From contig DATKVM010000002.1 of the NCBI GenBank assembly GCA_035530075.1, positions 103,348-167,347 of the forward strand: a DNA stretch of 64,000 nt, read 5' to 3'. A program made the translations under genes and the position numbers. The notes beneath the pieces were generated by a model. It searched no databases and was not told where the DNA came from. It was given only the letters and a program-made list of their open reading frames with translations. Below are positions 81-58,279 of the stretch, piece by piece; within the stretch, counting starts at the first letter, position 1; each line of letters begins with the position of its first letter. Origin of the DNA: Patescibacteria group bacterium (GTDB lineage Bacteria > Patescibacteriota > Microgenomatia > UM-FILTER-40-11).

Positions 81-704
81 TTATACCCCGTAGTCTCTCC
101 TTCCTTCCAGCGCCCGCTGCAAAGTCACCTCATCCGCATACTCGACATCCCCGCCAATTGGCAGTCCATGGGCCAGCCGGGTAATCTTGAACTTTGAACC
201 ATGAACCATAAGCTCGCGAAGTTCCTTCGCAATAAACATTGCTGTCGCCTCCCCTTCCATATTAGAATTAGTGGCAAGAATGATTTCACGGATTTCAAGC
301 GGATTTCTGTGGATCCGGCTAATTAACTCTCTTATTTTAATCTCATCCGGACCAATGTTATTTAAAGGAGAGATAGCGCCATGAAGTACATGATAAACGC
401 CATTAAAGCGACCTCCCCGCTCAAAAGCCAAGACATCCAAGGGCTGCTCCACCACGCAAATAATTCCATGGTCGCGGTTTTGAGAAGCACAAAGCGGGCA
501 AGGGTCAGTTTCCGCCACATTAAAACAGAGAGAGCACATAACGGTATTTTTCTTTAGATTGGCCAAAGCAGCCGCAAAATCATCCAGCATTGCCTGGGGA
601 ACATGAAGCAAATAAAAAGTCAACCGTTGGGCGGTTTTCGGACCAATGCCGGGCAGTCTCTCAAACGCTTCGGTTAAATTCTTAATCGCTCTGGGTATCT
701 GCAT
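81..704 (-). CDS. recR: Recombination protein RecR
   Basis: 207 aa. N-terminal HhH (LPGIGPKTAQRL), C4 zinc finger (CSLC...CPLC) and a Toprim/Walker-like region (ILATNSNMEGEATAMFIA). Typical RecR length. Confidence 0.9.
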   Translation of the reverse strand: MQIPRAIKNLTEAFERLPGIGPKTAQRLTFYLLHVPQAMLDDFAAALANLKKNTVMCSLCFNVAETDPCPLCASQNRDHGIICVVEQPLDVLAFERGGRFNGVYHVLHGAISPLNNIGPDEIKIRELISRIHRNPLEIREIILATNSNMEGEATAMFIAKELRELMVHGSKFKITRLAHGLPIGGDVEYADEVTLQRALEGRRDYGV

Positions 705-807
705 AACAAGCTATTTTACTCTAATCAAGGCTGAATTTGAAGCCTTATTTTACCCTAAACGAAGCTGGAATTGAAGAGTTTCCTTAAAGAATTAAGGAAG
801 CCTTTAC

Positions 808-1658: not shown

Positions 1659-1940
1659 TTATTCTCCACCTAAAAGCCCTTGAAGTCCCCCGGACATTTC
1701 TTGAAGTTTTTTGGCCGCTGTTTCTTGCGACTGTTTTATCGCTTTATTGAGTTTATCTTTAATTAAATCGTTTTTAATGCCCTGGATTTCAAATTCCAAA
1801 ATTTTCTGGTCACCGGAAATGACAATATGGACCCCGTCTTCATCAAGCTCAATTTTTTCCTGACTAAGCTGTTTTTGAATCGCCATGGCCTGATCCCGCA
1901 TCTTTTTCAAATCTCCTAAAGATTTAAATGGATTATTCAT
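1659..1940 (-). CDS. ybaB: Nucleoid-associated protein YbaB/EbfC
   Basis: 93 aa with the family-typical sequence (GDLKKMRDQAMAIQKQL...VISGDQKILEFEI...KDKL). Sits in the canonical dnaX-ybaB-recR context. Confidence 0.85.
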   Translation of the reverse strand: MNNPFKSLGDLKKMRDQAMAIQKQLSQEKIELDEDGVHIVISGDQKILEFEIQGIKNDLIKDKLNKAIKQSQETAAKKLQEMSGGLQGLLGGE

Positions 1941-3556
1941 TGAACCGTTTCTCCTTCCTTGTTAAAAATTTCTTCGGCGAACTTAATTATATCATCGTCC
2001 TTCCCTTCTGCAACTTTCATCGTCTTTCCCGGTTTAGCCAAATTGACTTCCGATGGAAAATTATCCAAAACCGGCAATGGTTTTACCGGCCGTGAGGCCT
2101 CACTTAAACTGCATTTCAGCTTAATCGGCACCCCTAAAACCTCGCTGGCCACTTTTTCAAAAATCCGGCGGCATTTTTCCGACTCCAATTGATCTTTATG
2201 AAATTTATAAAAGACTTCCAGCATTAGAAAACCACCATCAATTGCCAGCGGCCGGCAAGCTTTTAAAAAGGCTTGAACCGAGTGATTAAGAGGTTTAACT
2301 TTTCCCAAGATTTCCGGCCATTTAACCAAAACACTCTCTAATGTTAATAAGGGCGAAGCCGCACTGGCGGGAATTCTTTCTCCATCAGGTTTTTCTTCCG
2401 CCTTTGCCAAAGCTCCCTTCGGGGAATTCCTGCTCTGGGAATCATTACTTTCATCCCCCGAGAGACTGCCCCGGCCGGACGGGTTGGCCAGGGAAGACCA
2501 TTCAACTACTGCCATTTCCAAAGGCAACGAAGGGATAACTGCCTGACGCAACTCTTGATAAGCGGTATTAAAAAGACTGATAAGCTGGCGAATTTCTTCT
2601 CGGCTAAAACTAAATTTCATTTCTCCTTCATCATCGACCCCAAAATCCGCCAAAAGCAAAGCTCTTAATTTCTCCAGCAATTCTTCCGTTAGGATTTTTA
2701 AATTGGCTCCTTGTTCGGTTGCTCGGCCCAGCCAAAGGAGGGCTTCTTTAATCCCCCCTTCTTCTAATAATTTCAAGAATTCTTCAACTTTAAATTCGGC
2801 TAAAATGCCGGCAGTATTTTTGACTTCCTCCTCAGTTATCTTACCGGCCAGCGCCGCTCTTTCCAAAATCTTAATAGCGTCACGAAAACTCCCGTCCGCG
2901 AGTTTGGCAATCGTCGCCAAAGCCTTTTCTTCATAGTCCAATTTCTCCTCCTCGCATATCTTTTTTAATCTCTCGACGATTTCCGGCCGGTTTGCCCGTT
3001 TAAAATTTATCTGCTGACAACGGGAAACAATCGTTTTGGGGAGTTTCTCCGGATCAGTAGTGCAAATAATAAAAAGAGCGTGAGCCGGCGGTTCTTCCAA
3101 AGTCTTTAAAAGAGCGTTAAAGGCTTCGGTCGTTAGCATATGGACTTCATCAATAATATAGACCTTATATTTTGCCCTCGCCGGCGCCAGCCTAATTTTT
3201 TCCCGCAGTTCTTTAATATCGTCAATTCCCCGGTTACTGGCGGCATCAATCTCTAAAACATCAATATTTGTTCCGTTGGTTATCGAAATACAAGAATCGC
3301 ACTGGTTACACGGCTCAAAGGTCTTCTCTCCCTGTGATACTTTTGATGCTTCTGATACCTTTGATACCTTCTCACAGTTCACTGCTTTCGCCACAATTCT
3401 GGCCGCTGAAGTTTTACCAATCCCCCGGGGGCCAGTGAATAAAAAGGCATGAGGAAACTGGCTGGAGCGGAAAATCTTAATCAGTTCCTCTCTAACAGCG
3501 CTACTGTCCAGTTCCTGGAAACTCTGAGGCCGGTATTTGAGATATAGAGTCGTCAC
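1937..3556 (-). CDS. dnaX: DNA polymerase III subunit gamma/tau
   Basis: N-terminal YRPQSF, Walker A GPRGIGKTS, DExx IIDEVHML, SRC motif and a zinc-module (CEK...CNQCDSC). The zinc module is interrupted by a KVSKVSEASKVSQ low-complexity insert encoded by a GATACNTTT repeat. Confidence 0.9.
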   Translation of the reverse strand: MTTLYLKYRPQSFQELDSSAVREELIKIFRSSQFPHAFLFTGPRGIGKTSAARIVAKAVNCEKVSKVSEASKVSQGEKTFEPCNQCDSCISITNGTNIDVLEIDAASNRGIDDIKELREKIRLAPARAKYKVYIIDEVHMLTTEAFNALLKTLEEPPAHALFIICTTDPEKLPKTIVSRCQQINFKRANRPEIVERLKKICEEEKLDYEEKALATIAKLADGSFRDAIKILERAALAGKITEEEVKNTAGILAEFKVEEFLKLLEEGGIKEALLWLGRATEQGANLKILTEELLEKLRALLLADFGVDDEGEMKFSFSREEIRQLISLFNTAYQELRQAVIPSLPLEMAVVEWSSLANPSGRGSLSGDESNDSQSRNSPKGALAKAEEKPDGERIPASAASPLLTLESVLVKWPEILGKVKPLNHSVQAFLKACRPLAIDGGFLMLEVFYKFHKDQLESEKCRRIFEKVASEVLGVPIKLKCSLSEASRPVKPLPVLDNFPSEVNLAKPGKTMKVAEGKDDDIIKFAEEIFNKEGETVQ

Positions 3557-3920: not shown

Positions 3921-4052
3921 GGTTGGGTGTCAACTATAAATTTTTACTAACAAAGTATATCAGTCATTTTTTAAGAGATTGTTTCTTGTTCAATTGTTCT
4001 TTCCCCACCTTTCCAAGATCAAGCAACAAAACCATGAAGCAATGAAGCAATG

Positions 4053-13813: not shown

Positions 13814-14794
13814 CTAGATTTCCACCTCCTGGCCCTCCGAGTATTTACGATGGAACTCGGCTTGATGGGCCGACCAGCGCTCATCCAAAGCGGTTTGGCT
13901 AGGGAAGGGAAAGGATGTTCCTCGACCATCCCAGGAGTAGGTTTGGCCGCTGTTCAGCTTGACCAGCAAGGCTTTGCCGTCTTTGGTTGTCGTTTCCACA
14001 ATCGCCGGACCTTCGACTTCTGCCGAACTTTGACCAACGGGTTGGCTGACAGTGACGAGTGACGAAAGAGCCAAGTCAGAATCGCTCGAGCCGGGATTGC
14101 TAGAGGTGTTGCCGGCCGAGGACGTCTGAACCCGAACCACGAGACGGAAAGCGGAGACTTGATCGGGCAGCACCACAATCCCTGTCTGCATTTCGCCGTC
14201 GCGAATTCGAAGCTGCTCGGCTTGCAACTGGATGTTCTCTCGCACGGCTGCTTCATCTCCAGCGAAGAGCCAAGCGGTTCCGCCGCGATGACCGCGAATC
14301 CAAACGACCGTTCCTGGCCGAATGGCGAAGGTCCATCGTTCTGGAACTACCGTCTCCTCAAAGGCCATCTCCGTCCAAACTTGACCGACAATCCAACAGA
14401 TTTCGGAGAGACCACCAATCGGCGACTCGCCGTAAGTCTCGCCAAACTCCTGGTTATCAGCGTGCCAGATAATCCCGCAGCAGGGACAGGGAGCGGGTGC
14501 CGCCGGAGCCGGAGTGGGACCACCGCCAACAGGTTGAGGCGGAGGTACCGGTGTTACCCCCCCACCCGCAGCCACAGCCGGGACTACCTTAACCGAGACG
14601 ACCGGGGCGACGACGCTGGCCACGACTGGCTGAGCAAGGCTCACTGGGGCCGCCAGTTCACTGGCCTGCGCCAATTCCTCTACCCGTGCTTGAACATCGG
14701 AGCGAAGACTAGCAACCCAGACCAACAGAATCGCCAGCACCAGTAAGAAGACGGCCCTTTTCATCTTTTTCTCCTTTCGGTATGCCATTGTCAA
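13814..14794 (-). CDS. Pro-rich membrane-anchored protein with a Trp-rich C-terminal domain (paralog P1)
   Basis: Signal/anchor helix, an A/V/P-rich linker (PVPPPQPVGGGPTPAPAAPAPCPCC), then a WHADNQEFGETYGES...CWIVGQVWTE...TAWLFAGDEAAV domain shared with 17512..18255 and partly with 16516..17130. Local GC is about 60%. Confidence 0.5.
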   Translation of the reverse strand: MTMAYRKEKKMKRAVFLLVLAILLVWVASLRSDVQARVEELAQASELAAPVSLAQPVVASVVAPVVSVKVVPAVAAGGGVTPVPPPQPVGGGPTPAPAAPAPCPCCGIIWHADNQEFGETYGESPIGGLSEICWIVGQVWTEMAFEETVVPERWTFAIRPGTVVWIRGHRGGTAWLFAGDEAAVRENIQLQAEQLRIRDGEMQTGIVVLPDQVSAFRLVVRVQTSSAGNTSSNPGSSDSDLALSSLVTVSQPVGQSSAEVEGPAIVETTTKDGKALLVKLNSGQTYSWDGRGTSFPFPSQTALDERWSAHQAEFHRKYSEGQEVEI

Positions 14795-14923
14795 AGAGCT
14801 TTTGATGGGTCAGGAGATTCCTGCCTAAAAAGAATCTTGACCAACACCAAACTCTATGGAAATGAGTTTAAAGGGCGGAAACCAAAAGGGGGTAATAAAA
14901 AAGTAAGAGAAAGGTAAGAAGGC

Positions 14924-15541
14924 TTAGCGTCGATTAAAAACCGCCAAGACAACCCCCATCATCGCCGTTACTGCCGATAAAACTAATGAAAGTGTTAAAC
15001 CGGAAAAACCGGTGGGGGGAAGAACCGTCACTGCCGCCACTTTCTTGGCCGCACAAACTTTGGCGGTATCCTTATCGTGTCGATCCCCCGCTTGCGCTTC
15101 GGCAATATTAACATCACAAACTACATTTTGATTTTGAGGTAAATTTCCTTCTTCCACTACCCGAGCTTTGATTTCTCTTTCTTCAGTTTCCCCCGAGGTC
15201 AAGTCGGTAATTTCAAAAGAAAGACTGCCTGAACTAAGGCGCAAGAAGAATGGCAAAGTATCAGAAACGGTTACTTTATCTAAAGTAGCGTCGCCCACAT
15301 TTTTAATTCGCAATTGAAAAACGACTTCTTCTCCCGGAGCGAATTTATGATCAGTAATATCCAAATTATCGACAAATCGCTGGTTTACCGGATCAAGGAC
15401 AACTTTGTTTATTTGCAGTTCACCGGTTTTAATACAAACCTCCCCTCCGTATTGTTGCTCGCAGCGAACCGCCGCTTGCGCGTCGGCCATTAGCCAAAAG
15501 CAAGCTAAAAAGGAAGCGGCCAGAAAAACAATTTTTTTCAT
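14924..15541 (-). CDS. LPXTG-anchored surface protein with a DUF11 (CARDB-like) domain
   Basis: Signal peptide, DUF11-like segment (GEEVVFQLRIKNVGDATLDKVTVSDTLP), C-terminal LPPTG motif, hydrophobic helix and NRR tail. Confidence 0.7.
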   Translation of the reverse strand: MKKIVFLAASFLACFWLMADAQAAVRCEQQYGGEVCIKTGELQINKVVLDPVNQRFVDNLDITDHKFAPGEEVVFQLRIKNVGDATLDKVTVSDTLPFFLRLSSGSLSFEITDLTSGETEEREIKARVVEEGNLPQNQNVVCDVNIAEAQAGDRHDKDTAKVCAAKKVAAVTVLPPTGFSGLTLSLVLSAVTAMMGVVLAVFNRR

Positions 15542-15691
15542 TCTTTAATCTTTACTGAGTCTTGAGCTTGATAAACCCGTTCCAAAATTTTCCCCCCGCA
15601 TTATGAAGAGAGATAGCAAAAGTTGTCAAGCAAAACAGACTTTCATCTGCTTGCATTTATTTACTTAAACGCCTTACCTTGAAAATCGCAA

Positions 15692-16426
15692 ATGGAAATA
15701 ATCCTTTACGACGCTCAGCCATTAACGGAAAAAACTACCCCCACTTTGAGGCAACCGCTCATGGTCCTTTGGCGGCAAGCTCGGTCAACCAGCAAGCGAG
15801 CCTTTCGCTTAAGCGGTTACATTTTAATATTGCTATCTTTCTTAATCTCAGTGGTAGTGGCCGGGCCAATAGTAATTCAGGAAGTCGGTTATCGGCTTAC
15901 TCAAAAGCCTTTTGCCTCTCAAAAGGAAGGGCCTTCGAATCCCGCCTTAAAAGAACAGCGCCAGCAAGCAGCGGAAGAAGCGCGTAACTACGGCGTGAGT
16001 CCCGACTTTTCCATTGTTATCCCCAAGATTGACGCTAAAGCAAAAATTATCCCTAATGTTAATCCCGCGGATGAGAGGGAATACAAGAACGCTCTCAAAG
16101 AAGGCGTTGCTCACGCCTCAGGAACCAAATTTCCCGGCCATAAAGGCACCATTTACCTTTTTGCCCACTCGACGAATTCGCCCATCAACATTGCCCGTTA
16201 CAATGCCGTCTTCTACCTTTTAAAAGAACTTCGCAAAGAGGATGAAATTATTATTTTTTTCGCCGGCCAAAAATATGTTTATCGGGTCACTGAGCGTTTT
16301 GTCACCGCCGCTGACGACACCAAATGGCTAACTAATCAAGAAAAAGAAGAACAGCTGGTTCTCCAAACTTGCTGGCCACCGGGAACCAGCCAAAAAAGAC
16401 TGCTGGTAATTGCCAAACCGGCCTAA
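15692..16426 (+). CDS. Sortase (class A/E-like transpeptidase)
   Basis: N-terminal TM anchor, catalytic His (IYLFAHST), TLxTC Cys motif (LVLQTCWPPGT) and a downstream Arg (KRLLV). Divergently adjacent to the LPPTG substrate gene. The true start may be the internal Met at about 15761. Confidence 0.7.
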   Translation: MEIILYDAQPLTEKTTPTLRQPLMVLWRQARSTSKRAFRLSGYILILLSFLISVVVAGPIVIQEVGYRLTQKPFASQKEGPSNPALKEQRQQAAEEARNYGVSPDFSIVIPKIDAKAKIIPNVNPADEREYKNALKEGVAHASGTKFPGHKGTIYLFAHSTNSPINIARYNAVFYLLKELRKEDEIIIFFAGQKYVYRVTERFVTAADDTKWLTNQEKEEQLVLQTCWPPGTSQKRLLVIAKPA

Positions 16427-16515
16427 AAATAAATTTCTGGGAGAGGCAAGAAGTTAAGCTGGCGCCCCCTGGCTATCCAAACTCTCCTTCCTGCCCCTCC
16501 CGAACATCGGTCATC

Positions 16516-17130
16516 CTATTCCTCCGGCTTGCCTTCATTGCAGTCCTGATTGCTATCGAAGTATTCCGTCCGGTGAGAGGGATAGCGGCTGTCCACTGCG
16601 GCTTCGGAAGCGAACTGCCACCAAGTCCCCATCCCGTCATAACGGAAGGTTTCTCCCTCAGGGAGACGAAAAATGCCGCATTCGTGGTTACCGTCCCACC
16701 ATTGGACAATTGCCGGCCCTTTCGTCTCGCCAGGGAATTGACCGGAAGAGACCGGGTGTGCCTCCTCGGCCGCCAGATTGACAACCGTCGGTGTTCCCTG
16801 GGCACTGATCGTTGAAGTCACTACCGGCGATGCGGTTCCTCCGGGCAGAAGGGATCCTGGACTGGGAAGAACCTTCACCGCCAAAGTCGCTGTTTGCATC
16901 AACAAGCGCCGTTCCTGCTCGATTGCCACCACCTGGCGACGACCGGAGATAGTCATAAAGAAAAGCGCGAGGGTAGCCAAGAGGAGAAAACCCACTATCG
17001 CCAGCCACCCACCGTTTTTCTTCAGCCGTTCCTTGTAGTCTGTCGACTCTCCCTCTCCTGGTTCATCCCTCACCGGGAATGGCGGCCTTCTCATGGACAC
17101 TTCTACTCTTCCTTTCCTAGCAGTAGCCAT
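16516..17130 (-). CDS. Pro-rich membrane-anchored protein, shorter paralog P2
   Basis: Arg-rich N-terminus, TM helix, P/S/T linker and a C-terminal W-rich segment (TWWQFASEAAVDSRY) matching TAWLFAGDEAAVREN of P1. Lies in the GC-rich island. Confidence 0.45.
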   Translation of the reverse strand: MATARKGRVEVSMRRPPFPVRDEPGEGESTDYKERLKKNGGWLAIVGFLLLATLALFFMTISGRRQVVAIEQERRLLMQTATLAVKVLPSPGSLLPGGTASPVVTSTISAQGTPTVVNLAAEEAHPVSSGQFPGETKGPAIVQWWDGNHECGIFRLPEGETFRYDGMGTWWQFASEAAVDSRYPSHRTEYFDSNQDCNEGKPEE

Positions 17131-17511
17131 TTTCTCTCGCCTTCCTTCAGGGCCAATGCCCCTTCAGTTTTACCGACGATAAGGACAACCGAATGTAAAA
17201 GAACTCGCTCCTGCCTCACTCCCGCTTAAAGAAGCGGCAAAAAAGCTTTCTCTAAAATTAAGGTAATGTTCTTTAAAAAAACTCGCAAAAACATAAAGGG
17301 AATAAAAAAATAAATGGTGAGAATAATTGAATCTCTATGAAAAGTAGTCTAGCGAGTAATCAAGCAATCTTTGATAAAAAGGAAGTAAGAGTTTAGTAAG
17401 AAGAATTTTGGGAGAGGTACCGCTACTTTGTCTGTTTTAGTTGAGATCTGAGCGATTTTTAGCAGAACTCGGTAGTTTCCCTCTCCCTAGACTTCACGGC
17501 ATATCCTCCTA

Positions 17512-18255
17512 TTAAGAAGTGGCGGCCACTACCAGCCAGCAACGATTGGCTTCGTCAGGCAAGAACACCTTGGTTATTTCCGCCTGGGGATCCCTCGTTC
17601 TTAACTCTCTTTCCTGCTTTCCCAAATCAGCCTCCACCACCGACCTTTCACCCGCGAAAAACCAAGCAATGCCCCCCCGATAGTCAGTGAAGGTAACCGT
17701 CGTTCCCGGAGCAATGGCAAAAATCCAAACCTCAGCGGTCCCTGCCCGATCGGTCCAGATTTGCCCTACCAGCCAGCAGTCTTCATCGGCATCACCTAAG
17801 GTAGTCTCTCCAAAAAGCTCGCCGCCGGGCTGGTTAGGGTTATGCCAAGCTACACCCCCCTTCTGGCACGTCTCTACTTCAACGGTTGGCTGACGAGGAA
17901 GAGGGGTCGTCGGGGGATTTGGCAACGGGGTGGGGGTAGCAAAAATAGAGGTCGGCGTGTTCGTGGCAGCGGGGCCACTGGTCACCCTGGTTGGTGGAAC
18001 TACCTGTGGCAAGAGTGTCGGAAAGGGAGTTGCCGTGATTACCCGTTCAACTACCCGGACGGGCCTTGGTCGCAAAGCAAAGTAAATCGCGAGTATCAAC
18101 AAGATTGCCGCAACCACGCTCAAGAGGATGGCGAGAAGGCGCAAGAAGCCCGCTCCCCATCGATCGTTATTTTTCGGCCGATTGCCTTTCGGCTCTCTCG
18201 GCGGATCGACTTCCGACCGCCCGGAGGTATTTCCTGCCGATCTCCCCTCTCCCAT
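17512..18255 (-). CDS. Pro-rich membrane-anchored protein with a Trp-rich C-terminal domain (paralog P3)
   Basis: TM helix, a PT-rich linker (TPTPLPNPPTTPLPRQPT), then WHNPNQPGGELFGETTLG...CWLVGQIWTD...IAWFFAGERSVV aligning with P1. GC-rich. Confidence 0.5.
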   Translation of the reverse strand: MGEGRSAGNTSGRSEVDPPREPKGNRPKNNDRWGAGFLRLLAILLSVVAAILLILAIYFALRPRPVRVVERVITATPFPTLLPQVVPPTRVTSGPAATNTPTSIFATPTPLPNPPTTPLPRQPTVEVETCQKGGVAWHNPNQPGGELFGETTLGDADEDCWLVGQIWTDRAGTAEVWIFAIAPGTTVTFTDYRGGIAWFFAGERSVVEADLGKQERELRTRDPQAEITKVFLPDEANRCWLVVAATS

Positions 18256-33448: not shown

Positions 33449-35488
33449 CTACTTTGAGGCAGGCTTTCGCCAAGAAGCAAAATCGCACTTCGGCCAGTTA
33501 GCGCAACCATAAAAACCCTTGCCCTTCTTGGTTTTTTTATAGACAATTTCACCGCCACATTTAGGACACTGCATTCCCTCAATCTTTTTGACATAAGGCG
33601 CTCGCCAGTCACATTCCGGAAAACGGCTGCAGGATAAAAATTTACCAAAGCGACCAATTCGGATAACCACCGACCCCGTTTTGCATTTCGGACAAGCTTC
33701 CCCCGTCGCTTCCACCTGGACGGCCACTCGCTGGGCGACCCGTTTAACCCCTTCCAGCTTCTCCGCAAAAGGCTTCCAAAACTCTCGTAAAACTGGAACT
33801 CTTTCTTTTTGGCCATTGGCAATTTCGTCCAAATTGTCTTCCATTTTAGCCGTAAATTGATAATCCAAGATGTCCGGAAAATATTCCAGCAAAAATTCGG
33901 TGACGGCTACCCCCAAGGCCGTGGGGACAAACTGACGGTCTTGTTTTTCAACATAATTCCTATCCTGAATAGTGGAAATCGTCGGCGCATAAGTAGAAGG
34001 TCGACCAATACCCAACTCTTCCAAAGTTTTAATAAGGGAGGCTTCATTAAAACGCGGCGGGGGTTGAGTGAACTTCTGTTCCGGTTTAACCTCTAAAAGT
34101 TTAAGCTCATCCCCGGCAAAAACTGCCGGCAAACTTTCGATTTTATTCCCCTCTTCGTCCGTTTCTTCCGTCTTGCCGTAAACTTTACGCCAACCGTCAA
34201 ACTTTTCCTGGGCTCCTTTAGTTTCCAGTTGATAAATATTTTTCCCGCCGTCCGCCTGGATAGTCAGAGTCGTAATTTCCGCTATTGATTGGGCCATTTG
34301 GCAAGCAACAAACCGCTTCCAAATTAAGTCATATAACTTCTCTCCATCGGCACCCATTTTGAACTTTGAACTTTGAACTTTGAACTGGACGTCCGTAGGA
34401 CGGACGGCTTCGTGGGCCTCTTGAGCTGATTTGCTTTTGGTGGCAAAAAAACGGGGCTTTTCGGGCAAATAATTTTCCCCATAAGTCTTTTTAATAAAAT
34501 TGCGGACGCTATTAACTGCCTCCATCGCTAAGTTAGTCGAGTCGGTCCGGTGATAAGTGATTAAACCGTTCTCATAAAGACCCTGAGCAACATTCATCGT
34601 TTTTCTAGATGACCAACCCAAACGGTTCGCAGCCGCTTGCTGTAAAGTCGAAGTCGTAAAGGGAGCGGTGGGATTCCTTTTAAATTCCTTTTGGTCAACC
34701 GAGGCAACTTCATATCCCGCTTTCTTAAGTTCGCCAACGATTTCCTCGGCGGCTACTCCGTCTTTAATTTCAATTTTCTCGCCATTTTTTCTAACCAGTT
34801 TGGCCAAAAATCGAGGAGCATCGGCCAAGTCACTGCCAACCAACTTTTGAAGCAGCGTTTCAATTTCCCAAAACTCCACTGGAGCAAATTTCTCAATCTC
34901 TTTTTCGCGTTCAACAATTAAACGCACCACGACTGATTGAACTCGACCGGCCGAAAGACCACGGCGAATTTTTTGCCATAAAAGTGGGGAGAGTTTATAA
35001 CCGACCAGCCGGTCCAAAACCCGCCGGGCGACTTGAGCTTCGACTAAGGCCATATTAACCGTCCCCGCTTTTTCTAAAGCGGTTTCGATGGCTGTCTGTG
35101 TAATCTCATGGAAGGTGATACGGGAGATTGGGATATTAGGAGATTGGGATATTAAGCCATTTTTTTGTTTCTTTGCCCTTAAGATCTTCGTATCTTTTTC
35201 TCTCAATATCTCCCCGACATGCCAGGCAATCGCCTCACCCTCCCGATCCGGGTCGGTCGCCAAATAAACCTTCTCCGCTTTTTGGGCGGCTTTTTTAAGC
35301 TTAGCAATGTCTTCCTGTTTCCCCTCCACGACGGTGTAATCCGGAGCAAAGGTTTCGACATCTACCCCCAGTTTTTTCTTCGGCAAATCTCGAATGTGGC
35401 CCATGGTTGCTTCAATTTGGAACTTTTTGTCTAAAAATCGACTAAGAGTTTTAGCCTTAGTGGGTGATTCAACGATAATTAAATCCAT
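33449..35488 (-). CDS. topA: DNA topoisomerase I
   Basis: Toprim domain (MDLIIVESPTKAKT...IRDLP), catalytic Tyr region (GLITYHRTDS) and two C-terminal C4 zinc ribbons (CPKCKTG..., CPKCGGE...). In-frame repeat inserts (ISQSPNIPIS; SSKFKVQSSKFK) are present. Confidence 0.9.
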   Translation of the reverse strand: MDLIIVESPTKAKTLSRFLDKKFQIEATMGHIRDLPKKKLGVDVETFAPDYTVVEGKQEDIAKLKKAAQKAEKVYLATDPDREGEAIAWHVGEILREKDTKILRAKKQKNGLISQSPNIPISRITFHEITQTAIETALEKAGTVNMALVEAQVARRVLDRLVGYKLSPLLWQKIRRGLSAGRVQSVVVRLIVEREKEIEKFAPVEFWEIETLLQKLVGSDLADAPRFLAKLVRKNGEKIEIKDGVAAEEIVGELKKAGYEVASVDQKEFKRNPTAPFTTSTLQQAAANRLGWSSRKTMNVAQGLYENGLITYHRTDSTNLAMEAVNSVRNFIKKTYGENYLPEKPRFFATKSKSAQEAHEAVRPTDVQFKVQSSKFKMGADGEKLYDLIWKRFVACQMAQSIAEITTLTIQADGGKNIYQLETKGAQEKFDGWRKVYGKTEETDEEGNKIESLPAVFAGDELKLLEVKPEQKFTQPPPRFNEASLIKTLEELGIGRPSTYAPTISTIQDRNYVEKQDRQFVPTALGVAVTEFLLEYFPDILDYQFTAKMEDNLDEIANGQKERVPVLREFWKPFAEKLEGVKRVAQRVAVQVEATGEACPKCKTGSVVIRIGRFGKFLSCSRFPECDWRAPYVKKIEGMQCPKCGGEIVYKKTKKGKGFYGCANWPKCDFASWRKPASK

Positions 35489-35568
35489 ACAATTTAAGAT
35501 TGTTTCATCAATTAGCCGAAAAATGCAACCGGTAATTTATTTGCTTACTACTCACTACTTACTACTTG

Positions 35569-36678
35569 CTACTTAATCCCGTACATTCCTTCCCCAAAGT
35601 TCTTTATTATACCGCGGAGTTCCAAAATTGAAAGTATGCTTCCTAACCGACCACTTTCTATTTTCAGTTTTCTGGCAATTTCATCAATATGCTGATTTTC
35701 ATTCTCCAAAATTTCCACAATCTTTAATTCATCTCCGGCTAACTCCTCCTTTGATACCTTTGATACTTTTGATACTTTTGATACTTTTGATACCTCCATA
35801 TTCAGCTCTTCCAAAATATCCTCCACACCATTTACCAGCTTGGCCCCTTTTTTAATTAACTCGGCGGTTCCCGCCGAAAGAGGTGAAGTAATCGGGCCGG
35901 GAACGGCAAAAACCTCTCGACCTTGCTCAGCGGCACAAGAGGCGGTTATAAGTGAGCCGCTGTCCTCGGCCGCTTCTGTCACCACCACCCCCAAAGACAA
36001 ACCGCTAATAATCCGATTTCTGGCTGGAAAATTTCCCGGCACTGCCTGCATCCCTAAAGGAAATTCGCTAATAATCGCCCCACCGGCCGCCACAATTCTT
36101 TCAGCCAAGTCTTTGTGTTCCGGTGGATAAATTAAATCCAAACCGCAACCCAAGACCGCGATTGTCAGACTGCCGTTGAGAAGAGCCGTTTCGTGGGCAA
36201 TCCGATCAACTCCCCGGGCCAACCCCGAAACTATCATTAAACCGGCTCCCGCCAGCCCCTCAGTTATTATTTCCGTCACTTGTCGTCCGTAAGCGGTTAC
36301 TTTCCTCGTTCCGACAACAGCGACCGCCTTTTTACTCAAAAAACCCAGTTCTCTTTGTCTGCTCTTGACGTATAAAACGGGAGGGCTACCTGCTATTTCT
36401 TTTAGCAGTTTCGGGTAATTTTCTTCTTCGGCAAAAGTTACCTTTATTCCTTTTTGCTCCAGCCGAAGGAAATACGAATTGCCGTCGAAGCTTTGCCGGA
36501 AAGAAAGAAAATTTCCTACTAGTTTCTCCCCTAACCCAATTTCCCTCAAACTTTTTTCCGGGGCGACAAAGGCCCTTTTAGCGGAACCAAAATAATCCAA
36601 AAGCAATTTGAACCTTACCGGCCCAATCCCCTGGAAAACACTAAACGCCAACCAAGCTTTCTTCTCTTCTAAGTCCAT
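35569..36678 (-). CDS. dprA: DNA processing protein DprA/Smf
   Basis: SAM-like N-terminus (GIGPVRFKLLLDYFGS), Rossmann core (VVGTRKVTAYGRQ...GLARGVDRIAHE...) and a C-terminal winged helix. A (KVS)5 in-frame repeat precedes the WH domain. Confidence 0.85.
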   Translation of the reverse strand: MDLEEKKAWLAFSVFQGIGPVRFKLLLDYFGSAKRAFVAPEKSLREIGLGEKLVGNFLSFRQSFDGNSYFLRLEQKGIKVTFAEEENYPKLLKEIAGSPPVLYVKSRQRELGFLSKKAVAVVGTRKVTAYGRQVTEIITEGLAGAGLMIVSGLARGVDRIAHETALLNGSLTIAVLGCGLDLIYPPEHKDLAERIVAAGGAIISEFPLGMQAVPGNFPARNRIISGLSLGVVVTEAAEDSGSLITASCAAEQGREVFAVPGPITSPLSAGTAELIKKGAKLVNGVEDILEELNMEVSKVSKVSKVSKVSKEELAGDELKIVEILENENQHIDEIARKLKIESGRLGSILSILELRGIIKNFGEGMYGIK

Positions 36679-40417: not shown

Positions 40418-42511
40418 ATGAAGCTCGATGCCTTTTTCCAAAAAACAATCGCCTGGCTTTTTCCAATTCTTTTCTTTCTAGTACCCCTTTTCTTCACTCC
40501 TTATAATTCCGAACTTTTCGAATTCAATAAAATGCTTTTGGTTTACGCCTTCACCATTCTCATAGTCGGTGCCTGGTGCGCCCGGATGATTGGTCAAAAA
40601 AGGCTCATTTTCCAAAAAACCCCTCTGGACTGGCCCCTTTTAATTTTCTTAATTTCTCAATTTTTAAGTTTTTTACTTTCCATTGACCGGCATACCAGTC
40701 TCTGGGGATATTATTCCCGGTTTAACGGTGGCCTTCTATCCGTAATTGCTTATCTGCTTCTCTATTGGGCGTTTATCAGCAATTGCCAAACCAAGGATGT
40801 CCATAAAATTATTAAAGCTTCTCTAGCGGCTGGCTTAATTATTTCTTTTTATGGCATTCTGGAGCATTTCGGACACTCTTTCAGTTGTCTTTTATTCGAG
40901 GGAAAGTTTAATGTCGATTGTTGGGTTCAGGATGTTCAGGCTCGCGTTTTTGCCACCCTAGGCCAACCCAATTGGCTGGCCGCTTACCTAGCCGTCCTTA
41001 TTCCTATCGCCATCGTTTATCTTCTTTGGGCCAAAAACAAAAGGAACTTTGCTTACTATTTAATACTTAATGCTAGCTACTTTGCTTGTCTTCTCTTCAC
41101 CGGCTCCCGCTCCGGTTTTTTGGGTCTGGTTACTGCCCTCGGTGTTTTGGGAATATTTATTTTTCTCTTCTATCGCCGAAACTTCCGTCCTTTTCTTCGT
41201 CCCTGCTTAATACTTACTACTAACTACTTGCTACTAATCGTTATTTTCGGCTCACCTTTTTCTCAAATTAATCGCTATTTGCCCCGTTGGTCATTTTTGC
41301 CAGAAAAAGCGGTCCCCGCGGTCACGGTCGGAACTCAATTGGAAACTGGGGGGACAGAATCAGGAAAAATCCGCCAAATAGTTTGGCAAGGGGCCTGGGA
41401 AATCTTTCGCCACTACCCGATTTTTGGATCTGGAGTGGAAACTTTTGCCCATTCTTACTACAATTTTCGGCCAGTGGCTCATAATACTGTATCAGAATGG
41501 GATTTTCTGTATAATAAGGCTCATAACGAATACCTTAATTATCTCTCCACGACCGGGATTGTCGGCTTAGGAGCTTACCTTTTCTTCATTGGCTGGTTTA
41601 TTACCCAGACCGTATCCAGGTTTAAAAAGGAACTGACTTCTTCCGATAACCTTAATCCTTACTCCTTAATACTGGCTACTTTCTGCGGTTGGCTTTCCAT
41701 CCTTGTTTCTAATTTTTTTGGCTTTTCCGTCGTCATTATCTCCCTGTATTTTTATCTCATCCCCGCTTTCATTTTCGTCCTTTCTCGCCCGCCAACTGCC
41801 AGCGACCAACCATCTCTACCCTTCACTCTTAGCCGTAAAATTTTGTTTCTCGTCCTCCTGCTTACTACTTTCTACTTACTACTGACTACTATTAATCTCT
41901 GGCGGGCAGATTTCTTTTATTCACTGAGTCAGAAATATAGCAAACAAAATCAATATGTTTCATCTTATCAAAACATAACAAAAGCTATCGAAATTGCTCC
42001 GAGAGAACCGATTTTTCTTAACGAACTTTCCTCGGTCGCCGCCAATTTAGCGATTCTGGCGGCAGAAGAAAAGAAGGCCAGCATGGCTGCCGAATTAACG
42101 ACGGTGGCTATCCATTCAAGCAAAGCCGCTTTAGAAATAAGTCCTACCAATCTTAACTTTGGGAAAACTCAAGTGCGAGTTTTTTATTTGCTTTCCGCCC
42201 TCGATCCTAATTATCTTGAAGAAGCGATTAATAGTCTTCGGGCGGCGATTAGTTTTGCCCCCACCGACCCGAAATTGGTTTACAATTTAGGACTTTTGAC
42301 GGCTAAAGCCGGCCAGACTAAAGAAGCCCTCGCGATAATCGAGAAGGCCGTTGAACTCAAGCCTAACTATGAAGAAGCGCACCGGACTCTGGCACTTTTT
42401 TATGAAGAATTAGGCAATAATCAAGATGCAATTAAACAGCTAGAAGCTATTCTAAAACAAAAAGGGTCCGATCCGGAAATTGAAGCCGAAATCGAAAAAC
42501 TGAAGAAGTAG
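40418..42511 (+). CDS. O-antigen ligase (Wzy_C)-like polytopic membrane protein with a C-terminal TPR domain
   Basis: Multiple TM helices, FTGSRSGFLG and H.HNEYLNYLSTTGIVG signatures of the O-antigen ligase family, and C-terminal TPR repeats (KAVELKPNYEEAHRTLALFYEELGNNQDAI). Confidence 0.65.
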   Translation: MKLDAFFQKTIAWLFPILFFLVPLFFTPYNSELFEFNKMLLVYAFTILIVGAWCARMIGQKRLIFQKTPLDWPLLIFLISQFLSFLLSIDRHTSLWGYYSRFNGGLLSVIAYLLLYWAFISNCQTKDVHKIIKASLAAGLIISFYGILEHFGHSFSCLLFEGKFNVDCWVQDVQARVFATLGQPNWLAAYLAVLIPIAIVYLLWAKNKRNFAYYLILNASYFACLLFTGSRSGFLGLVTALGVLGIFIFLFYRRNFRPFLRPCLILTTNYLLLIVIFGSPFSQINRYLPRWSFLPEKAVPAVTVGTQLETGGTESGKIRQIVWQGAWEIFRHYPIFGSGVETFAHSYYNFRPVAHNTVSEWDFLYNKAHNEYLNYLSTTGIVGLGAYLFFIGWFITQTVSRFKKELTSSDNLNPYSLILATFCGWLSILVSNFFGFSVVIISLYFYLIPAFIFVLSRPPTASDQPSLPFTLSRKILFLVLLLTTFYLLLTTINLWRADFFYSLSQKYSKQNQYVSSYQNITKAIEIAPREPIFLNELSSVAANLAILAAEEKKASMAAELTTVAIHSSKAALEISPTNLNFGKTQVRVFYLLSALDPNYLEEAINSLRAAISFAPTDPKLVYNLGLLTAKAGQTKEALAIIEKAVELKPNYEEAHRTLALFYEELGNNQDAIKQLEAILKQKGSDPEIEAEIEKLKK

Positions 42512-52796: not shown

Positions 52797-53645
52797 ATGA
52801 TTGATACTCACGCCCACCTGAATTTTCCCTCGCTCTTGGAGCAGATTGAAAAAGTGGTAGCGGAAAGCCAAAAAGCCGGTATTACCGGGATTATCATTGC
52901 CGGTAGCCGTATAAAAGACTCTGCTTGTGCCGTTGAGCTGGCCCAAAAATACCCCGGCTACCTTTTTGCCTCAGTCGGTATCCATCCCCACAAGACTGAT
53001 CCAGAAAATCAGATGCCAATTGAAGAACAACTTCAGTCTCTTGAACGTCTAATACTTGACGCTAAACGCTCTCCCCTAGACGCTATCGTTGCTATCGGCG
53101 AGACCGGCCTTGATTTTTCCCTGGCTCCACCAGGCAACGAAGACCGACCAAAAGAAGAACAAATTAGGTTATTCCAGGAGCATATCAAGCTGGCTCAAAA
53201 ATATAATCTCCCACTCATAATTCACGCCCGGGAAGCAGTCGACGAAGTAATCGAAATCCTAACAATGAAACAATGGAACAATGAAGCAATGAAGGGCGTT
53301 TTCCACTGCTACGCCGGCGGCCGCAAAAGAATTCAGAAAATTTTAGATTTAGATTCCCCTGATACTTTTGACACTTCTGATACATCTGATACCTTTCCTC
53401 ATTGGTATTTTGGCTTTGACGGCAATTTAACTTACGATGAAGGCCTTCAAGCAGTCGTAAAATTAATCCCGCCGGAGCGGATTTTGATTGAAACCGATAG
53501 TCCTTTCCTGGCCCCGGTCCCCCATCGCGGCGAGATTAACACCCCGGCTTATTTGCCCTTAATTCAAGAGAAAATAAATGAAATTCTCGGCCAGGATTTG
53601 ACCAAACAAATCGAAAAGAATACCCGAAAGCTTTTCAATTTTTAA
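52797..53645 (+). CDS. tatD: TatD-family metal-dependent hydrolase
   Basis: MIDTHAHLN, the GIHPH region, VFHCYAGG and ETDSPFLAP. Contains in-frame inserts TMKQWNNEAMKG and DTFDTSDTSDTF. Confidence 0.8.
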   Translation: MIDTHAHLNFPSLLEQIEKVVAESQKAGITGIIIAGSRIKDSACAVELAQKYPGYLFASVGIHPHKTDPENQMPIEEQLQSLERLILDAKRSPLDAIVAIGETGLDFSLAPPGNEDRPKEEQIRLFQEHIKLAQKYNLPLIIHAREAVDEVIEILTMKQWNNEAMKGVFHCYAGGRKRIQKILDLDSPDTFDTSDTSDTFPHWYFGFDGNLTYDEGLQAVVKLIPPERILIETDSPFLAPVPHRGEINTPAYLPLIQEKINEILGQDLTKQIEKNTRKLFNF

Positions 53646-57486: not shown

Positions 57487-57541
57487 CCATCAGTAACCAG
57501 TAGATAGTGGCTAGCAAAACATACTATCTCCTCCCTAACTA

Positions 57542-58279
57542 CTATCTACTAACTACTTTTTCTTTAAGCACCAGGAAGGGAAAAACCACTACCGCATTCC
57601 AAACCCTTTTCCAGTGTCCGGGGCGCTGTAATCCCCGCCAAAGCCATTCTAAACCTAATTGACGCATCTTGGCCGGAGCGCGCTCCGTAAAACCAGTGAG
57701 AAAGTCTAAGCCCCCACCGATCCCCAGAAAAACCGCTGCCTTTATTTTGCCTCTATTTTTCATAATCCAGCGCTCCTGTTTACCCATTCCCTGACAAGCC
57801 AAAACCATTTCAAATCTCAAATCTCTAATTTCTAATTTCGGCTTATCGAGATTAACGGCCGTTAACCCCGGATACCTTATTTCTAGCCTTTTAATTAATT
57901 CTTCTGCCTCGCTCTCCTCTCCCCGGCGGGCACCGGCTATTCCCACGGCCCATTTTTCTTTATTGCCAATCGAAAGCAGCTTCGCGACTAAGTCGGCGCC
58001 AGAAATTCTTTCGGGCAATGGCTGGCCGAGAAATTTGGATAACCATATCAGACCGAATCCATCGGCAACGTTAAGATCGGACTGATTAAGAAGCTGACGA
58101 AAGGTCTCGTCACCGTTAGCAGCGACTAAGAACTCCGAATTGGGGGTAAAAACCACTCTCCTTTCTGGCCTCGGTTTAGCCACAAAACTTAGAATTTCGC
58201 TTAGCACTTCGACAAGCTCAGTGCTATTTATTCTTACTTTTAAAATCACGGCGATATTTCGGCTCATTCTTACTGTCAT
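57542..58279 (-). CDS. WecG/TagA/CpsF-family glycosyltransferase
   Basis: VVFTPNSEFLV, DGFGLIW, GIAGARRGE, QERW and GLEWLWRGLQRP are family signatures. A KLEIRDLRFE insert is encoded by a TCTAATTTCTAATTTC-type repeat. Confidence 0.7.
   Translation of the reverse strand: MTVRMSRNIAVILKVRINSTELVEVLSEILSFVAKPRPERRVVFTPNSEFLVAANGDETFRQLLNQSDLNVADGFGLIWLSKFLGQPLPERISGADLVAKLLSIGNKEKWAVGIAGARRGEESEAEELIKRLEIRYPGLTAVNLDKPKLEIRDLRFEMVLACQGMGKQERWIMKNRGKIKAAVFLGIGGGLDFLTGFTERAPAKMRQLGLEWLWRGLQRPGHWKRVWNAVVVFPFLVLKEKVVSR

What the first reader, a model, noticed from the sequence alone, without database searches (positions are those of the whole stretch)
3336..3368. GATACNTTT 9-bp tandem repeat inserted in frame in dnaX, dprA and tatD, always in the same chromosomal orientation
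The same 9-bp unit occurs as tandem arrays at 3336..3368 (dnaX, minus-strand gene: KVSKVSEASKVSQ), 35753..35793 (dprA, minus-strand gene: (KVS)5) and 53361..53396 (tatD, plus-strand gene: DTFDTSDTSDTF). In all three the plus-strand sequence reads GATAC(T/C)T(T/C)T, so orientation follows the chromosome rather than the gene. Array lengths are multiples of 9, preserving reading frames in essential genes. This looks like a replication-strand-biased minisatellite or a small in-frame-tolerated element (compare Rickettsia palindromic elements) rather than random low complexity.
Basis: seen in the sequence. Interest (0 to 1): 0.6.

Follow-up and report, generated by a model that had tools for sequence, protein, structure and literature searches.

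The report
Dispersed 9-bp repeat inside Patescibacteria genes
Three housekeeping genes of an uncultivated ultrasmall bacterium carry in-frame copies of one short DNA repeat that recurs across this bacterial group; it behaves as tolerated repetitive DNA forming floppy protein loops, and its direction does not follow the chromosome.

Summary
Three arrays of 4-5 units of GATACYTTT lie in frame in dnaX, dprA and tatD, all on the + strand. The window is a Microgenomates (Patescibacteria/CPR) MAG contig.

It is a DNA-level repeat family, not a protein motif. In 235 arrays from public genomes and metagenomes the same unit is read in five frames (KVS, KSI, DTF, ILL, KYQ). It also sits in intergenic spacers next to start or stop codons, and about 15 times as inverted pairs that can fold into hairpins.

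In the window the arrays occupy hypervariable loops. They are the only segments with pLDDT below 50 in the AlphaFold models of TatD and DprA.

They are not hypervariable. Strain-level contigs at 99.2-99.99% identity (six spanning the tatD array, three the dnaX array) show no copy-number change.

The chromosome-orientation idea is not supported: on multi-array contigs, 21 pairs have the same orientation and 19 the opposite.

Arrays within one genome share derived unit variants ("dialects") across genes and reading frames. This points to copying or homogenisation between loci rather than independent slippage.

Host genes lean towards DNA and nucleotide metabolism, which is suggestive only.

Closest analogues are Rickettsia palindromic elements, TAACTGA/STRR dispersed repeats and DNA uptake sequences. 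I found no description of it in the searched literature.

The parts
3336..3371 (+). Array 1: four units of GATACYTTT (GATACTTTT GATGCTTCT GATACCTTT GATACCTTC). Read antisense in dnaX as KVSKVSEASKVS.
   Evidence: It lies between the first and second Cys of the DnaX zinc module. That loop ranges from 6 to more than 40 residues among Microgenomates homologues, and the KVS array is seen only in this species. It is identical in three strain-level contigs, L180-L182.
1937..3556 (-). dnaX, encoding DNA polymerase III gamma/tau (539 aa); host of array 1.
   Evidence: Pfam PF13177, PF22608, PF20964 and PF12169. Called at 539 aa in L180-L182 as well.
35753..35797 (+). Array 2: five units (GATACCTTT, GATACTTTT x3, GATACCTCC). 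Read antisense in dprA as EVSKVSKVSKVSKVSK.
   Evidence: It sits in the linker between the DprA Rossmann-like domain and the winged-helix domain. DprA residues 298-306 are the only segment with pLDDT below 50 in the AF2 model. The closest homologues carry (K/R)VS repeats at the same site. A DprA that is 46% identical carries the same DNA unit there in the KSI frame.
35569..36678 (-). dprA, encoding the DNA-processing protein DprA (369 aa); host of array 2.
   Evidence: PF02481 at 2.9e-75 and PF17782.
53352..53396 (+). Array 3: a degenerate unit GATTCCCCT followed by GATACTTTT GACACTTCT GATACATCT GATACCTTT. Read in sense in tatD as (SP)DTFDTSDTSDTF.
   Evidence: It is an insertion of about 14 aa relative to most TatD orthologues, including the closest other species, P0122. 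TatD residues 188-199 are the only segment with pLDDT below 50 in the AF2 model. There is no length change in six strain-level contigs, and one SNP at 53381.
52797..53645 (+). tatD, encoding a TatD-family hydrolase/DNase (282 aa); host of array 3.
   Evidence: PF01026 at 8.1e-65. The 99%-identical cluster P0121 has 9 members; all its full-length members listed (P0121, P0241, P0243) are 282 aa, as is the window protein.
35117..35200 (-). Possible decayed relative of the family in the topA Toprim loop (low confidence). The syntenic relative L043 has an inverted pair of arrays here (PRAPRVSKGEKNAHGALDTFDTRDTR). The window keeps only a similar A-rich spacer (AAAAAAATGGC) and a 16-mer duplication.
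   Evidence: TopA is 83% identical overall, but this loop is unalignable. Homology of the loop DNA is my inference from short shared strings.

Best explanation
The three arrays belong to one dispersed family of 9-bp tandem repeats (consensus GATACYTTT, usually 3-6 units) that lives in Patescibacteria genomes as repetitive DNA. They do not encode a conserved protein motif.

Shown:
- The same DNA unit occurs in intergenic spacers and inside many unrelated genes, in all five stop-free reading frames.
- In the two proteins modelled (TatD, DprA) it forms a disordered surface loop or linker; in DnaX it lies in a loop of highly variable length.
- It is stable within the species.
- It can persist at one site across related lineages (70-78% identical proteins).
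- Arrays within one genome share derived unit variants regardless of gene or frame.

Inferred mechanism:
1. Arrays are seeded and kept alike by DNA-level copying between loci. Candidates are template switching or gene conversion between arrays during replication or repair, or recombination with transformed DNA.
2. Local slippage then sets the copy number.
3. Selection removes every copy except those that keep the reading frame in a tolerant loop, linker or terminus, or that fall in the short spacers next to start and stop codons.

On this view the encoded (KVS)n and (DTF)n peptides are passengers and the arrays are nearly neutral, selfish-like DNA. No enzyme that moves them has been identified.
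For: DNA level, not protein level:
- Of 235 arrays, 82 lie in open stretches of at least 600 nt. Their frames are KVS 35, KSI 19, DTF 17, ILL 8, KYQ 3.
- DprA alone carries the unit as KVS (window), RVS plus TGIKGITSI (L041), KSI in loop 1 (L042) and KSI in the linker (L137).

Specific family:
- It is the only period-9 array family in the window. It is also the only one in 107 kb of Patescibacteria loci, although those loci were chosen for containing it.
- At least 15 of the 40 genome-collection loci are titled as Patescibacteria lineages, several genomes being hit more than once.
- L026 has five arrays in 8 kb.

Tolerated positions:
- The arrays are the only AF2 segments with pLDDT below 50 (TatD 188-199, DprA 298-306).
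- The DnaX, TatD and DprA sites are length-hypervariable in orthologues.
- Intergenic copies lie 1-50 nt from start or stop codons.

Not a contingency locus: there is no copy-number change in strain-level contigs at 99.2-99.99% identity, six spanning the tatD array and three the dnaX array.

Communication between loci:
- G at unit position 8 (YCGT or YTGT) marks 7 of the 8 arrays in L027, L041 and L043, and none of the 27 arrays elsewhere, at similar GC content. The chance of this grouping is about 1e-6.
- In L041 the same DNA variant gives Arg in one array and Thr in the other.
- Arrays on one contig share non-canonical units four times more often than arrays on different contigs (0.172 against 0.040, resampling p below 1e-4).

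Inverted pairs with hairpin z-scores of -3.4 to -8.8 fit template-switch or fold-back copying.
Against: - No transposase, reverse transcriptase or other mobilising gene was seen in the window or its flanks.
- No target-site duplication or terminal inverted repeat could be defined.
- A conserved 5' flank (TTAGCYCKT) is present in only about 34 of 235 arrays.
- Array length follows a decaying distribution (3: 70, 4: 87, 5: 36, 6: 16, with a tail to 20). This is what plain slippage gives.
- At the DprA linker the native ELGIK/ELDIK codons (GGT/GAT ATC AAA) already resemble the unit, so that array could have grown in place.
- Dialects could partly reflect genome-specific mutation bias rather than copying.
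- The lean of host genes towards DNA and nucleotide metabolism is not predicted by a purely neutral passenger model.
Confidence: 0.5

Rival explanations
1. Ordinary in-situ slippage. Each array arose on its own from a local proto-repeat in a loop that tolerates low complexity. The shared unit is a coincidence of AT-rich composition and codon usage.
For: - Composition-matched control 9-mers are as common as the real unit in viral contigs: 14, 16 and 6 loci against 10.
- The same loops in orthologues hold other 3-aa repeats such as GQIGQI, KGDKGD and RDLRDL.
- Array lengths follow a decaying distribution.
- The native GIK/DIK codons at the DprA linker resemble the unit.
Against: - One unit accounts for every period-9 array of 3 or more copies in the window, and for every one in the Patescibacteria loci examined.
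- It appears in three unrelated genes within 50 kb, in five frames overall, and in intergenic DNA.
- Genome-specific dialects cross genes and frames.
- Recurrent inverted pairs.
Confidence: 0.2
2. A functional cis-element recognised as DNA. Examples would be a DNA-uptake or recombination signal analogous to DUS/USS, or tandem binding sites for a nucleoid or competence protein. Such an element would spread by molecular drive.
For: - Host genes lean towards DNA and nucleotide metabolism and competence: DnaX, DprA, TatD, TopA, Fpg twice, ThyX, Dcd, ComEA, Cmk-like and HolB.
- Among annotated ORFs this is 9 of 20 hosts against 3 of 21 neighbouring ORFs (p = 0.034). In the window all 3 intact arrays fall in a class holding about 12% of genes (p = 0.002).
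- Inverted pairs occur at gene ends and there are genome-specific dialects. Both are known properties of uptake sequences (PMC2817400, PMC3630211).
- Natural competence has been shown in Saccharibacteria, and com genes are conserved across CPR (PMC10633639).
Against: - Density is only about one array per 28 kb.
- Single units are not over-represented: 9 exact units in the window, 8 of them inside arrays. True uptake sequences occur about once per kb as single motifs.
- With unannotated ORFs counted, the enrichment is weak (p = 0.085-0.14).
- The reported DUS bias to maintenance genes is itself disputed (PMC2817400 abstract).
- No binding or uptake data exist.
Confidence: 0.13
3. An RNA-level element. 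Inverted pairs form hairpins in polycistronic mRNA that act as terminators, processing sites or stabilisers. Single U-rich arrays next to start codons modulate translation, as proposed for TAACTGA repeats.
For: - Inverted pairs fold at -37 to -50 kcal/mol, with z-scores of -3.4 to -8.8.
- By my reading of the positions, all six intergenic copies just upstream of start codons read GAUACUUUU in the mRNA sense, and four of five just downstream of stop codons read AAAAGUAUC.
- The parallel is PMC4679880.
Against: - The three window arrays are solitary and lie inside coding sequence in both senses.
- The two arms of a pair are not kept strictly complementary.
- There is no Rfam match.
- The hairpin follows automatically from any inverted repeat.
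Confidence: 0.1
4. A replication-strand-biased minisatellite. Array orientation would be fixed by the direction of the replication fork.
For: - All three arrays in the window are on the + strand, and the whole window has negative GC skew.
- Three other short-repeat families in the window (CTTACTA, CAATGAAG, AACTTTK) are also all on the + strand.
Against: - Same-contig pairs are 21 co-oriented against 19 opposed.
- Loci of one genome show the unit on strands of opposite skew.
- The heptamer array downstream of dprA is inverted in the syntenic relative L043.
- GATAC itself is not strand-skewed outside the arrays.
- The chance probability of three of three is 0.25.
Confidence: 0.05

Closest known systems
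Rickettsia palindromic elements (RPE). The description here is from my own knowledge of Ogata et al. 2000; several papers listed mention them.
   Same: Short repetitive DNA inserted in frame into housekeeping and essential genes. It is tolerated because it lands in surface-exposed segments. Copies are dispersed through the genome and no mobilising enzyme is known. Relatives of this window carry palindromic (inverted-pair) versions inside topA and the L4 gene.
   Different: RPEs are palindromic units of roughly 100-150 bp, not tandem arrays of a 9-bp unit, and are confined to Rickettsia. The three copies in this window are solitary arrays and not palindromic. No sequence similarity was tested.
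TAACTGA direct repeats of Beggiatoaceae, cyanobacteria and Bacteroidetes, and cyanobacterial STRR heptamers (PMC4679880).
   Same: One specific short unit recurs as short tandem arrays (2-6 copies) at many loci of a genome. Copies are mostly next to start or stop codons, with occasional copies inside ORFs at protein peripheries. The phylogenetic distribution is patchy and no mechanism of spread is known.
   Different: Those units are 7 nt and contain stops in all three frames of one orientation, so they are largely excluded from coding DNA. The 9-nt unit here preserves the frame and is open in five of six frames, so a large share sits inside genes. The host lineage is also different.
DNA uptake sequences (USS and DUS; PMC2817400, PMC3630211, PMC2397512).
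   Same: A non-palindromic motif with a 9-10 nt core, found in both orientations and in coding DNA in tolerated frames. Dyad pairs occur at gene ends. There are lineage-specific dialects. A bias towards genome-maintenance genes has been reported (and disputed). The hosts are naturally competent.
   Different: Uptake sequences are single motifs at about one per kb, hundreds to thousands per genome, with proven uptake bias. Here the unit matters only as tandem arrays at about one per 28 kb, single units are not enriched, and no uptake data exist.
Coding-region VNTRs and simple-sequence contingency loci.
   Same: Head-to-tail short units inside genes, with lengths that are multiples of three giving variable peptide repeats.
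   Different: No copy-number polymorphism was seen in the nine strain-level contigs that span an array. The same unit is shared by unrelated genes and by intergenic DNA.
REP/BIME elements with RAYT transposases, and MITEs (PMC3733652, PMC10969869).
   Same: Small dispersed repeats. Inverted pairs lie in intergenic spacers just after stop codons and could form hairpins.
   Different: REPs are extragenic imperfect palindromes of 20-40 bp with a GTAG or CGTC tag and an associated RAYT gene. MITEs have terminal inverted repeats and target-site duplications. None of these features was found here.
[quoted passage not shown]
   Same: An intragenic tandem repeat whose DNA has dyad symmetry, with a punctate distribution suggesting spread at the DNA level.
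   Different: PARCELs encode a 25-residue amphipathic domain in surface and membrane proteins of unknown function. They are not a 3-residue unit inserted into loops of conserved enzymes.

Membership tests
Dispersed specific-unit tandem repeat family (STRR / TAACTGA type) | One defined short unit recurs as tandem arrays at many separate loci of the same genome. | tested here: met
   There are three arrays in 64 kb, or about 83 kb with the flanks. L026 has five in 8 kb, and four loci hit genome SMAG_U6018. No other 9-mer forms arrays.
Dispersed specific-unit tandem repeat family (STRR / TAACTGA type) | Arrays lie mostly intergenic, close to start or stop codons. | tested here: inconclusive
   All three arrays in the window are intragenic. 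In Patescibacteria loci, 17 of 34 arrays are intergenic, typically 1-50 nt from a gene end. Of all 235 arrays, 82 lie in open stretches of at least 600 nt.
Rickettsia palindromic element-like in-frame selfish DNA | Inserted in frame into conserved protein genes at structurally tolerant sites. | tested here: met
   Alignments A1, A2 and A4 place the arrays in length-variable loops. The arrays are the only AF2 segments with pLDDT below 50.
Rickettsia palindromic element-like in-frame selfish DNA | The element is itself a palindrome of roughly 100-150 bp. | tested here: not met
   The window arrays are solitary direct repeats of 36-45 bp. Inverted pairs exist only in relatives: L004, L019, L020, L023, L027 and L043.
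DNA uptake sequence (DUS/USS) | Single motifs strongly over-represented genome-wide, about one per kb. | tested here: not met
   The window holds 9 exact units, 8 of them inside arrays. GATAC occurs 31 times on + and 27 times on -.
DNA uptake sequence (DUS/USS) | Dyad pairs at gene ends, lineage dialects, and a bias towards genome-maintenance genes. | tested here: inconclusive
   Pairs were found and dialects were found. The functional bias has p = 0.034 among annotated ORFs and p = 0.085-0.14 with unannotated ORFs counted.
DNA uptake sequence (DUS/USS) | The motif increases DNA uptake or transformation. | not testable with these tools
   This needs uptake or transformation assays. Natural competence is shown only for Saccharibacteria (PMC10633639).
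Contingency locus / hypervariable VNTR | Copy number varies between closely related strains. | tested here: not met
   L045-L050 (tatD) and L180-L182 (dnaX), at 99.2-99.99% identity, show no indel in any array.
REP/BIME-RAYT or MITE | An extragenic palindrome with a conserved tag and an associated RAYT gene, or terminal inverted repeats with a target-site duplication. | tested here: not met
   The copies are intragenic. No Y1 transposase or other transposase appears in the Pfam lists for the window and its flanks. The flank consensus is present in only 34 of 235 arrays. Target-site duplications could not be assessed at the available divergence.
Known structured RNA family | A match to an Rfam covariance model. 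| tested here: not met
   Four loci carrying hairpin pairs gave 0 matches at gathering thresholds. The window itself was not scanned.

The most novel reading that the evidence does not exclude
The arrays could be a cis-acting DNA signal of the patescibacterial competence and recombination machinery, a tandem-repeat counterpart of DUS/USS. Preferential uptake or recombination of array-bearing DNA would spread the arrays, keep them alike within a genome (the dialects), and concentrate them in genes for DNA replication, repair, uptake and nucleotide supply.
Probability: 0.12. Interest if true: 0.85.

Novelty: new variant of a known kind. Interest (0 to 1): 0.5.

Why it matters
Patescibacteria/CPR genomes are usually described as small and streamlined. 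A repeat family that sits in frame in replication, repair and competence genes across several CPR lineages shows that repetitive DNA still shapes their proteins, accounting for at least these lineage-specific loop insertions.

The genome-specific dialects show that dispersed arrays stay alike within a genome. No known mobile-element machinery explains this in these organisms.

If the lean towards DNA-metabolism and competence genes holds at genome scale, the arrays would be the first candidate uptake or recombination signal in this group. That can now be tested, because Saccharibacteria can be transformed.

On a practical level, gene callers and homology models should expect disordered inserts of 12-15 residues at these sites.

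Tried and rejected
1. An oriented word like KOPS or Chi. Rejected: GATAC and longer sub-words are not strand-skewed outside the arrays.
2. An element of fixed size (four units plus a TTAGCYCKT flank), suggested by 13 Patescibacteria copies. Rejected on the larger sample: unit counts run from 3 to 20 and the flank is present in 34 of 235 arrays.
3. Cross-phylum horizontal spread, suggested by hits in Prevotella, Gammaproteobacteria and giant viruses. Not needed: three composition-matched control 9-mers give 14, 16 and 6 viral loci against 10 for the real unit.
4. Copy-number variation between strains. None was found.
5. A known RNA family for the hairpin pairs. None was found.
6. A link to IS200/IS605 target sequences (TTGAT and TTAC occur in the 9-mer and in the heptamer). 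This was only a recollection. No transposase was seen nearby and I did not pursue it.
7. Selection for Lys-rich loops specifically in DNA-binding proteins. Rejected as the cause of the host bias: in my tally of the hosts, K-rich frames are about as common in non-DNA hosts.
8. Literature searches for tandem repeats in CPR/Patescibacteria found nothing on this repeat.
9. I could not extend the source contig (223 kb) more than 10 kb beyond each end of the window, so a whole-replichore orientation test on this genome was not possible.
Full report
**What is in the window.** The three arrays are present as described.
- 3336-3371 has four units: GATACTTTT GATGCTTCT GATACCTTT GATACCTTC.
- 35753-35797 has five units.
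- 53361-53396 has four units, preceded by a degenerate fifth at 53352.

A two-unit pattern with up to three mismatches hits 11 times, always on the + strand. Shuffles give 0.84 on average, and none of 100 reaches 11. The host ORFs are DnaX, DprA and TatD by Pfam. The encoded peptides are EKVSKVSEASKVSQ, EVSKVSKVSKVSKVSK and DTFDTSDTSDTF. These are the only period-9 arrays of three or more copies in the window. GC skew is negative across the whole window.

**Source.** The best DprA and TatD homologues are annotated as Microgenomates or Patescibacteria. Window positions 42797-63645 are 100% identical to ENA contig ERZ27256810 k141_1140009, which is 223 kb. Its TatD is NCBI HUW24200.1, "MAG TPA: Patescibacteria group bacterium". 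The same species was assembled independently from other samples by ENA, JGI and Logan.

**Position in the proteins.**
- *TatD.* The array is an insertion of about 14 residues between a helix and a strand of the barrel. It is absent from most orthologues, including the closest other species, P0122, at 80% identity. P0129 has a possible remnant, PFDTSPHW.
- *DnaX.* The array lies between the first two cysteines of the zinc module. This loop ranges from 6 to more than 40 residues in Microgenomates, and the KVS repeat is seen only here.
- *DprA.* The array lies in the linker before the winged-helix domain. The closest homologues (70-78% identity) have (K/R)VS repeats at the same place. L041 shows these are the same DNA unit (AGTATCACG x5.2).

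AlphaFold2 models built from these alignments are confident overall (mean pLDDT 90.6 and 90.9). Their only segments with pLDDT below 50 are TatD 188-199 and DprA 298-306, which are the arrays themselves.

**Stability.** Six strain-level contigs cover tatD and three cover dnaX, at 99.2-99.99% identity. None has an indel in any short-repeat array. One SNP lies in the tatD array. These are not hypervariable loci. The extra 10 kb to the left and 8.8 kb to the right of the window hold no further array, so the density is about one per 28 kb.

**The family outside the window.** An exact 23-nt pattern found 40 loci in the species-representative genome collection. At least 15 are titled as Patescibacteria lineages (Curtiss-, Levy-, Davies-, Woese- and Kaiserbacteria, Saccharimonadales and unclassified Patescibacteria). 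Several genomes were hit more than once.

Across all loci I counted 235 arrays. Unit counts were 3: 70, 4: 87, 5: 36, 6: 16, with a tail to 20. Of these, 82 lie in open stretches of at least 600 nt, read as KVS 35, KSI 19, DTF 17, ILL 8 and KYQ 3. The rest are in short intergenic spacers, or on contigs too short to judge. In Patescibacteria loci the intergenic copies lie 1-50 nt from a start or stop codon.

About 15 array pairs are inverted neighbours less than 80 nt apart, ten with 5' ends facing and five with 3' ends facing. Some of these are the same locus seen in related genomes. L043 topA adds a further pair that the script missed, and together with the pair in the L027 L4 gene these lie inside genes. 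The pairs fold as long hairpins. No Rfam family matches.

Three composition-matched control 9-mers are as frequent in viral contigs as the real unit: 14, 16 and 6 loci against 10. I therefore treat the scattered hits in other phyla as background. The real signal is the concentration and multiplicity in Patescibacteria.

**Orientation.**
- Outside the arrays the word is not strand-skewed.
- On contigs with two or more separate arrays, 21 pairs are co-oriented and 19 opposed.
- Two loci of one Curtissbacteria genome have the unit on strands of opposite skew.
- L025 and L031, from a single genome, each carry both orientations within 8 kb.
- Inside genes the unit is antisense 57 times and sense 25 times. 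The expected ratio is 3:2, because one sense frame has a stop (p = 0.048). Another sense frame encodes a hydrophobic peptide.

Because genes are mostly co-oriented with replication, this frame effect can mimic a chromosomal polarity. Three of three in the window (chance probability 0.25) does not establish one. Three other short-repeat families in the window also lie only on the + strand. In the syntenic relative L043, however, the heptamer array downstream of dprA is inverted.

**Dialects.** Units with G at position 8 (YCGT or YTGT) dominate 7 of the 8 arrays in L027, L041 and L043, and none of the 27 arrays in the other loci, including the window. GC content is similar. The chance of this grouping is about 1e-6.

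In L041 the same DNA variant encodes Arg in the DprA linker and Thr in loop 1. The variant is therefore a property of the DNA and not selected at the protein level. More generally, arrays more than 300 nt apart on one contig share non-canonical units four times more often than arrays on different contigs (0.172 against 0.040, resampling p below 1e-4).

The DprA linker array is orthologous between the window (KVS) and L041 (RVS). Each nevertheless resembles the other arrays of its own genome. That pattern is concerted evolution.

**Host genes.** Hosts include:
- DNA and nucleotide metabolism or competence: DnaX, DprA (several lineages, two sites), TatD, TopA, Fpg (two lineages), ThyX, Dcd, ComEA, a Cmk-like kinase, HolB, SHMT and MCM.
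- Other functions: NusA, FtsE, L4, a GTPase, GT2, a Mur ligase, ATP synthase, CysRS and an aminotransferase.

In the metagenome sample, 9 of 20 annotated hosts are DNA or nucleotide metabolism, against 3 of 21 annotated neighbouring ORFs (p = 0.034). With unannotated ORFs counted, p is 0.085-0.14. In the window all three arrays fall in a class that I count at about 11 of 88 genes (p = 0.002). This lean is suggestive but not established, and neighbouring genes are an imperfect baseline.

**Explanation.** I conclude that this is a dispersed DNA-level repeat family that survives where it does no harm. It resembles Rickettsia palindromic elements in consequence and the TAACTGA/STRR repeats in form.

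- *Shown:* one unit at many loci, in five frames, in tolerant positions, stable within the species, and with genome-specific dialects.
- *Inferred:* arrays are copied or homogenised between loci by template switching, gene conversion or transformation-linked recombination. Slippage sets their length. Selection filters for frame and position.

Plain independent slippage remains possible for single sites; the DprA linker's native GIK/DIK codons resemble the unit. It explains the monopoly of one unit and the dialects poorly. A functional reading, as an uptake or recombination signal or a protein-binding array, is the most interesting alternative. The low density and the absence of enriched single units count against it.

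**Limits.**
- Only 83 kb of the source genome was visible.
- Metagenome loci carry no taxonomy.
- Loci were selected by requiring at least 2.5 perfect units.
- Host-function counts are small.
- The homology of the decayed topA loop rests on short shared strings.
- Statements about RPE, and the remark on the essentiality of dprA and tatD, are from my own knowledge and not from a tool.

Noticed in passing
window 35544-35575, 41206-41237, 41861-41890, 57535-57557: Heptamer arrays of CTTACTA/CTAACTA, all on the + strand. The first supplies the TAG stop of dprA (35569-35571) and fills the dprA-topA spacer. Two lie in frame in the + gene 40418..42511, which is Wzy_C/TPR-like by synteny. One lies at the stop of the - gene 57542..58279. 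The reverse complement, TAGTAAG, has stops in all three frames, like the TAACTGA repeats of PMC4679880. L043 has the same family, with the copy downstream of dprA inverted.
   Followed up: partly
window 4034-4052, 46168-46201, 53261-53293: Octamer arrays of CAATGAAG, all on the + strand. The third is 33 nt long, in frame in tatD about 70 nt upstream of the 9-mer array, and encodes MKQWNNEAMKG. Similar peptides occur in TatD orthologues P0132 and P0135 but not in the closer P0122. That is a patchy distribution at a single site.
   Followed up: partly
window 34358-34386 and 21764-21795: Heptamer arrays TTTGAAC and AACTTTT inside coding sequence. The topA copy makes a loop DVQFKVQSSKFKMG where the relative L043 has AVEKEKISEG. 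Units that are not multiples of three are retained here with a frame-preserving net length difference (the window loop is 4 residues longer).
   Followed up: partly
window 35123-35154: An exact 16-mer duplication (GGAGATTGGGATATTA x2) in the topA Toprim loop. This is the site where L043 carries an inverted pair of GATAC arrays.
   Followed up: partly
window 712-776: A 34-bp direct repeat, x1.9 at 80% match, in the spacer next to recR (81..704).
   Followed up: no
window about 14000-18000 and 18459-20612: GC content rises to 0.50, against 0.45 elsewhere. This is around a sortase, a DUF11 protein, several ORFs without Pfam hits, and a TrwB/HerA-like ATPase of the type IV secretion coupling-protein type. 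It may be an island or a secretion locus.
   Followed up: no
window 56692-56745: Strain contig L045 differs from the window by eight clustered indels of 1-2 nt in the ribosomal protein L7/L12 gene (56552..56968). This is the only indel cluster among the strain-level contigs.
   Followed up: no
DprA alignment A1, columns 150-216 and 385-440: Nearly every Microgenomates DprA carries some 3-residue periodic repeat in one of two loops, for example GQIGQIG, KGDKGDKGD, RDLRDL or SIKSINSIK. Nine-base repeat expansion in loops therefore appears widespread among the sampled DprA homologues, with different units in different lineages.
   Followed up: partly
window 39327-40379 and 58763-59857: Two MreB/Mbl-family ORFs lie in the window. 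The second has PF06723 by the L044/L183 gene calls, and the first by synteny with L043.
   Followed up: no
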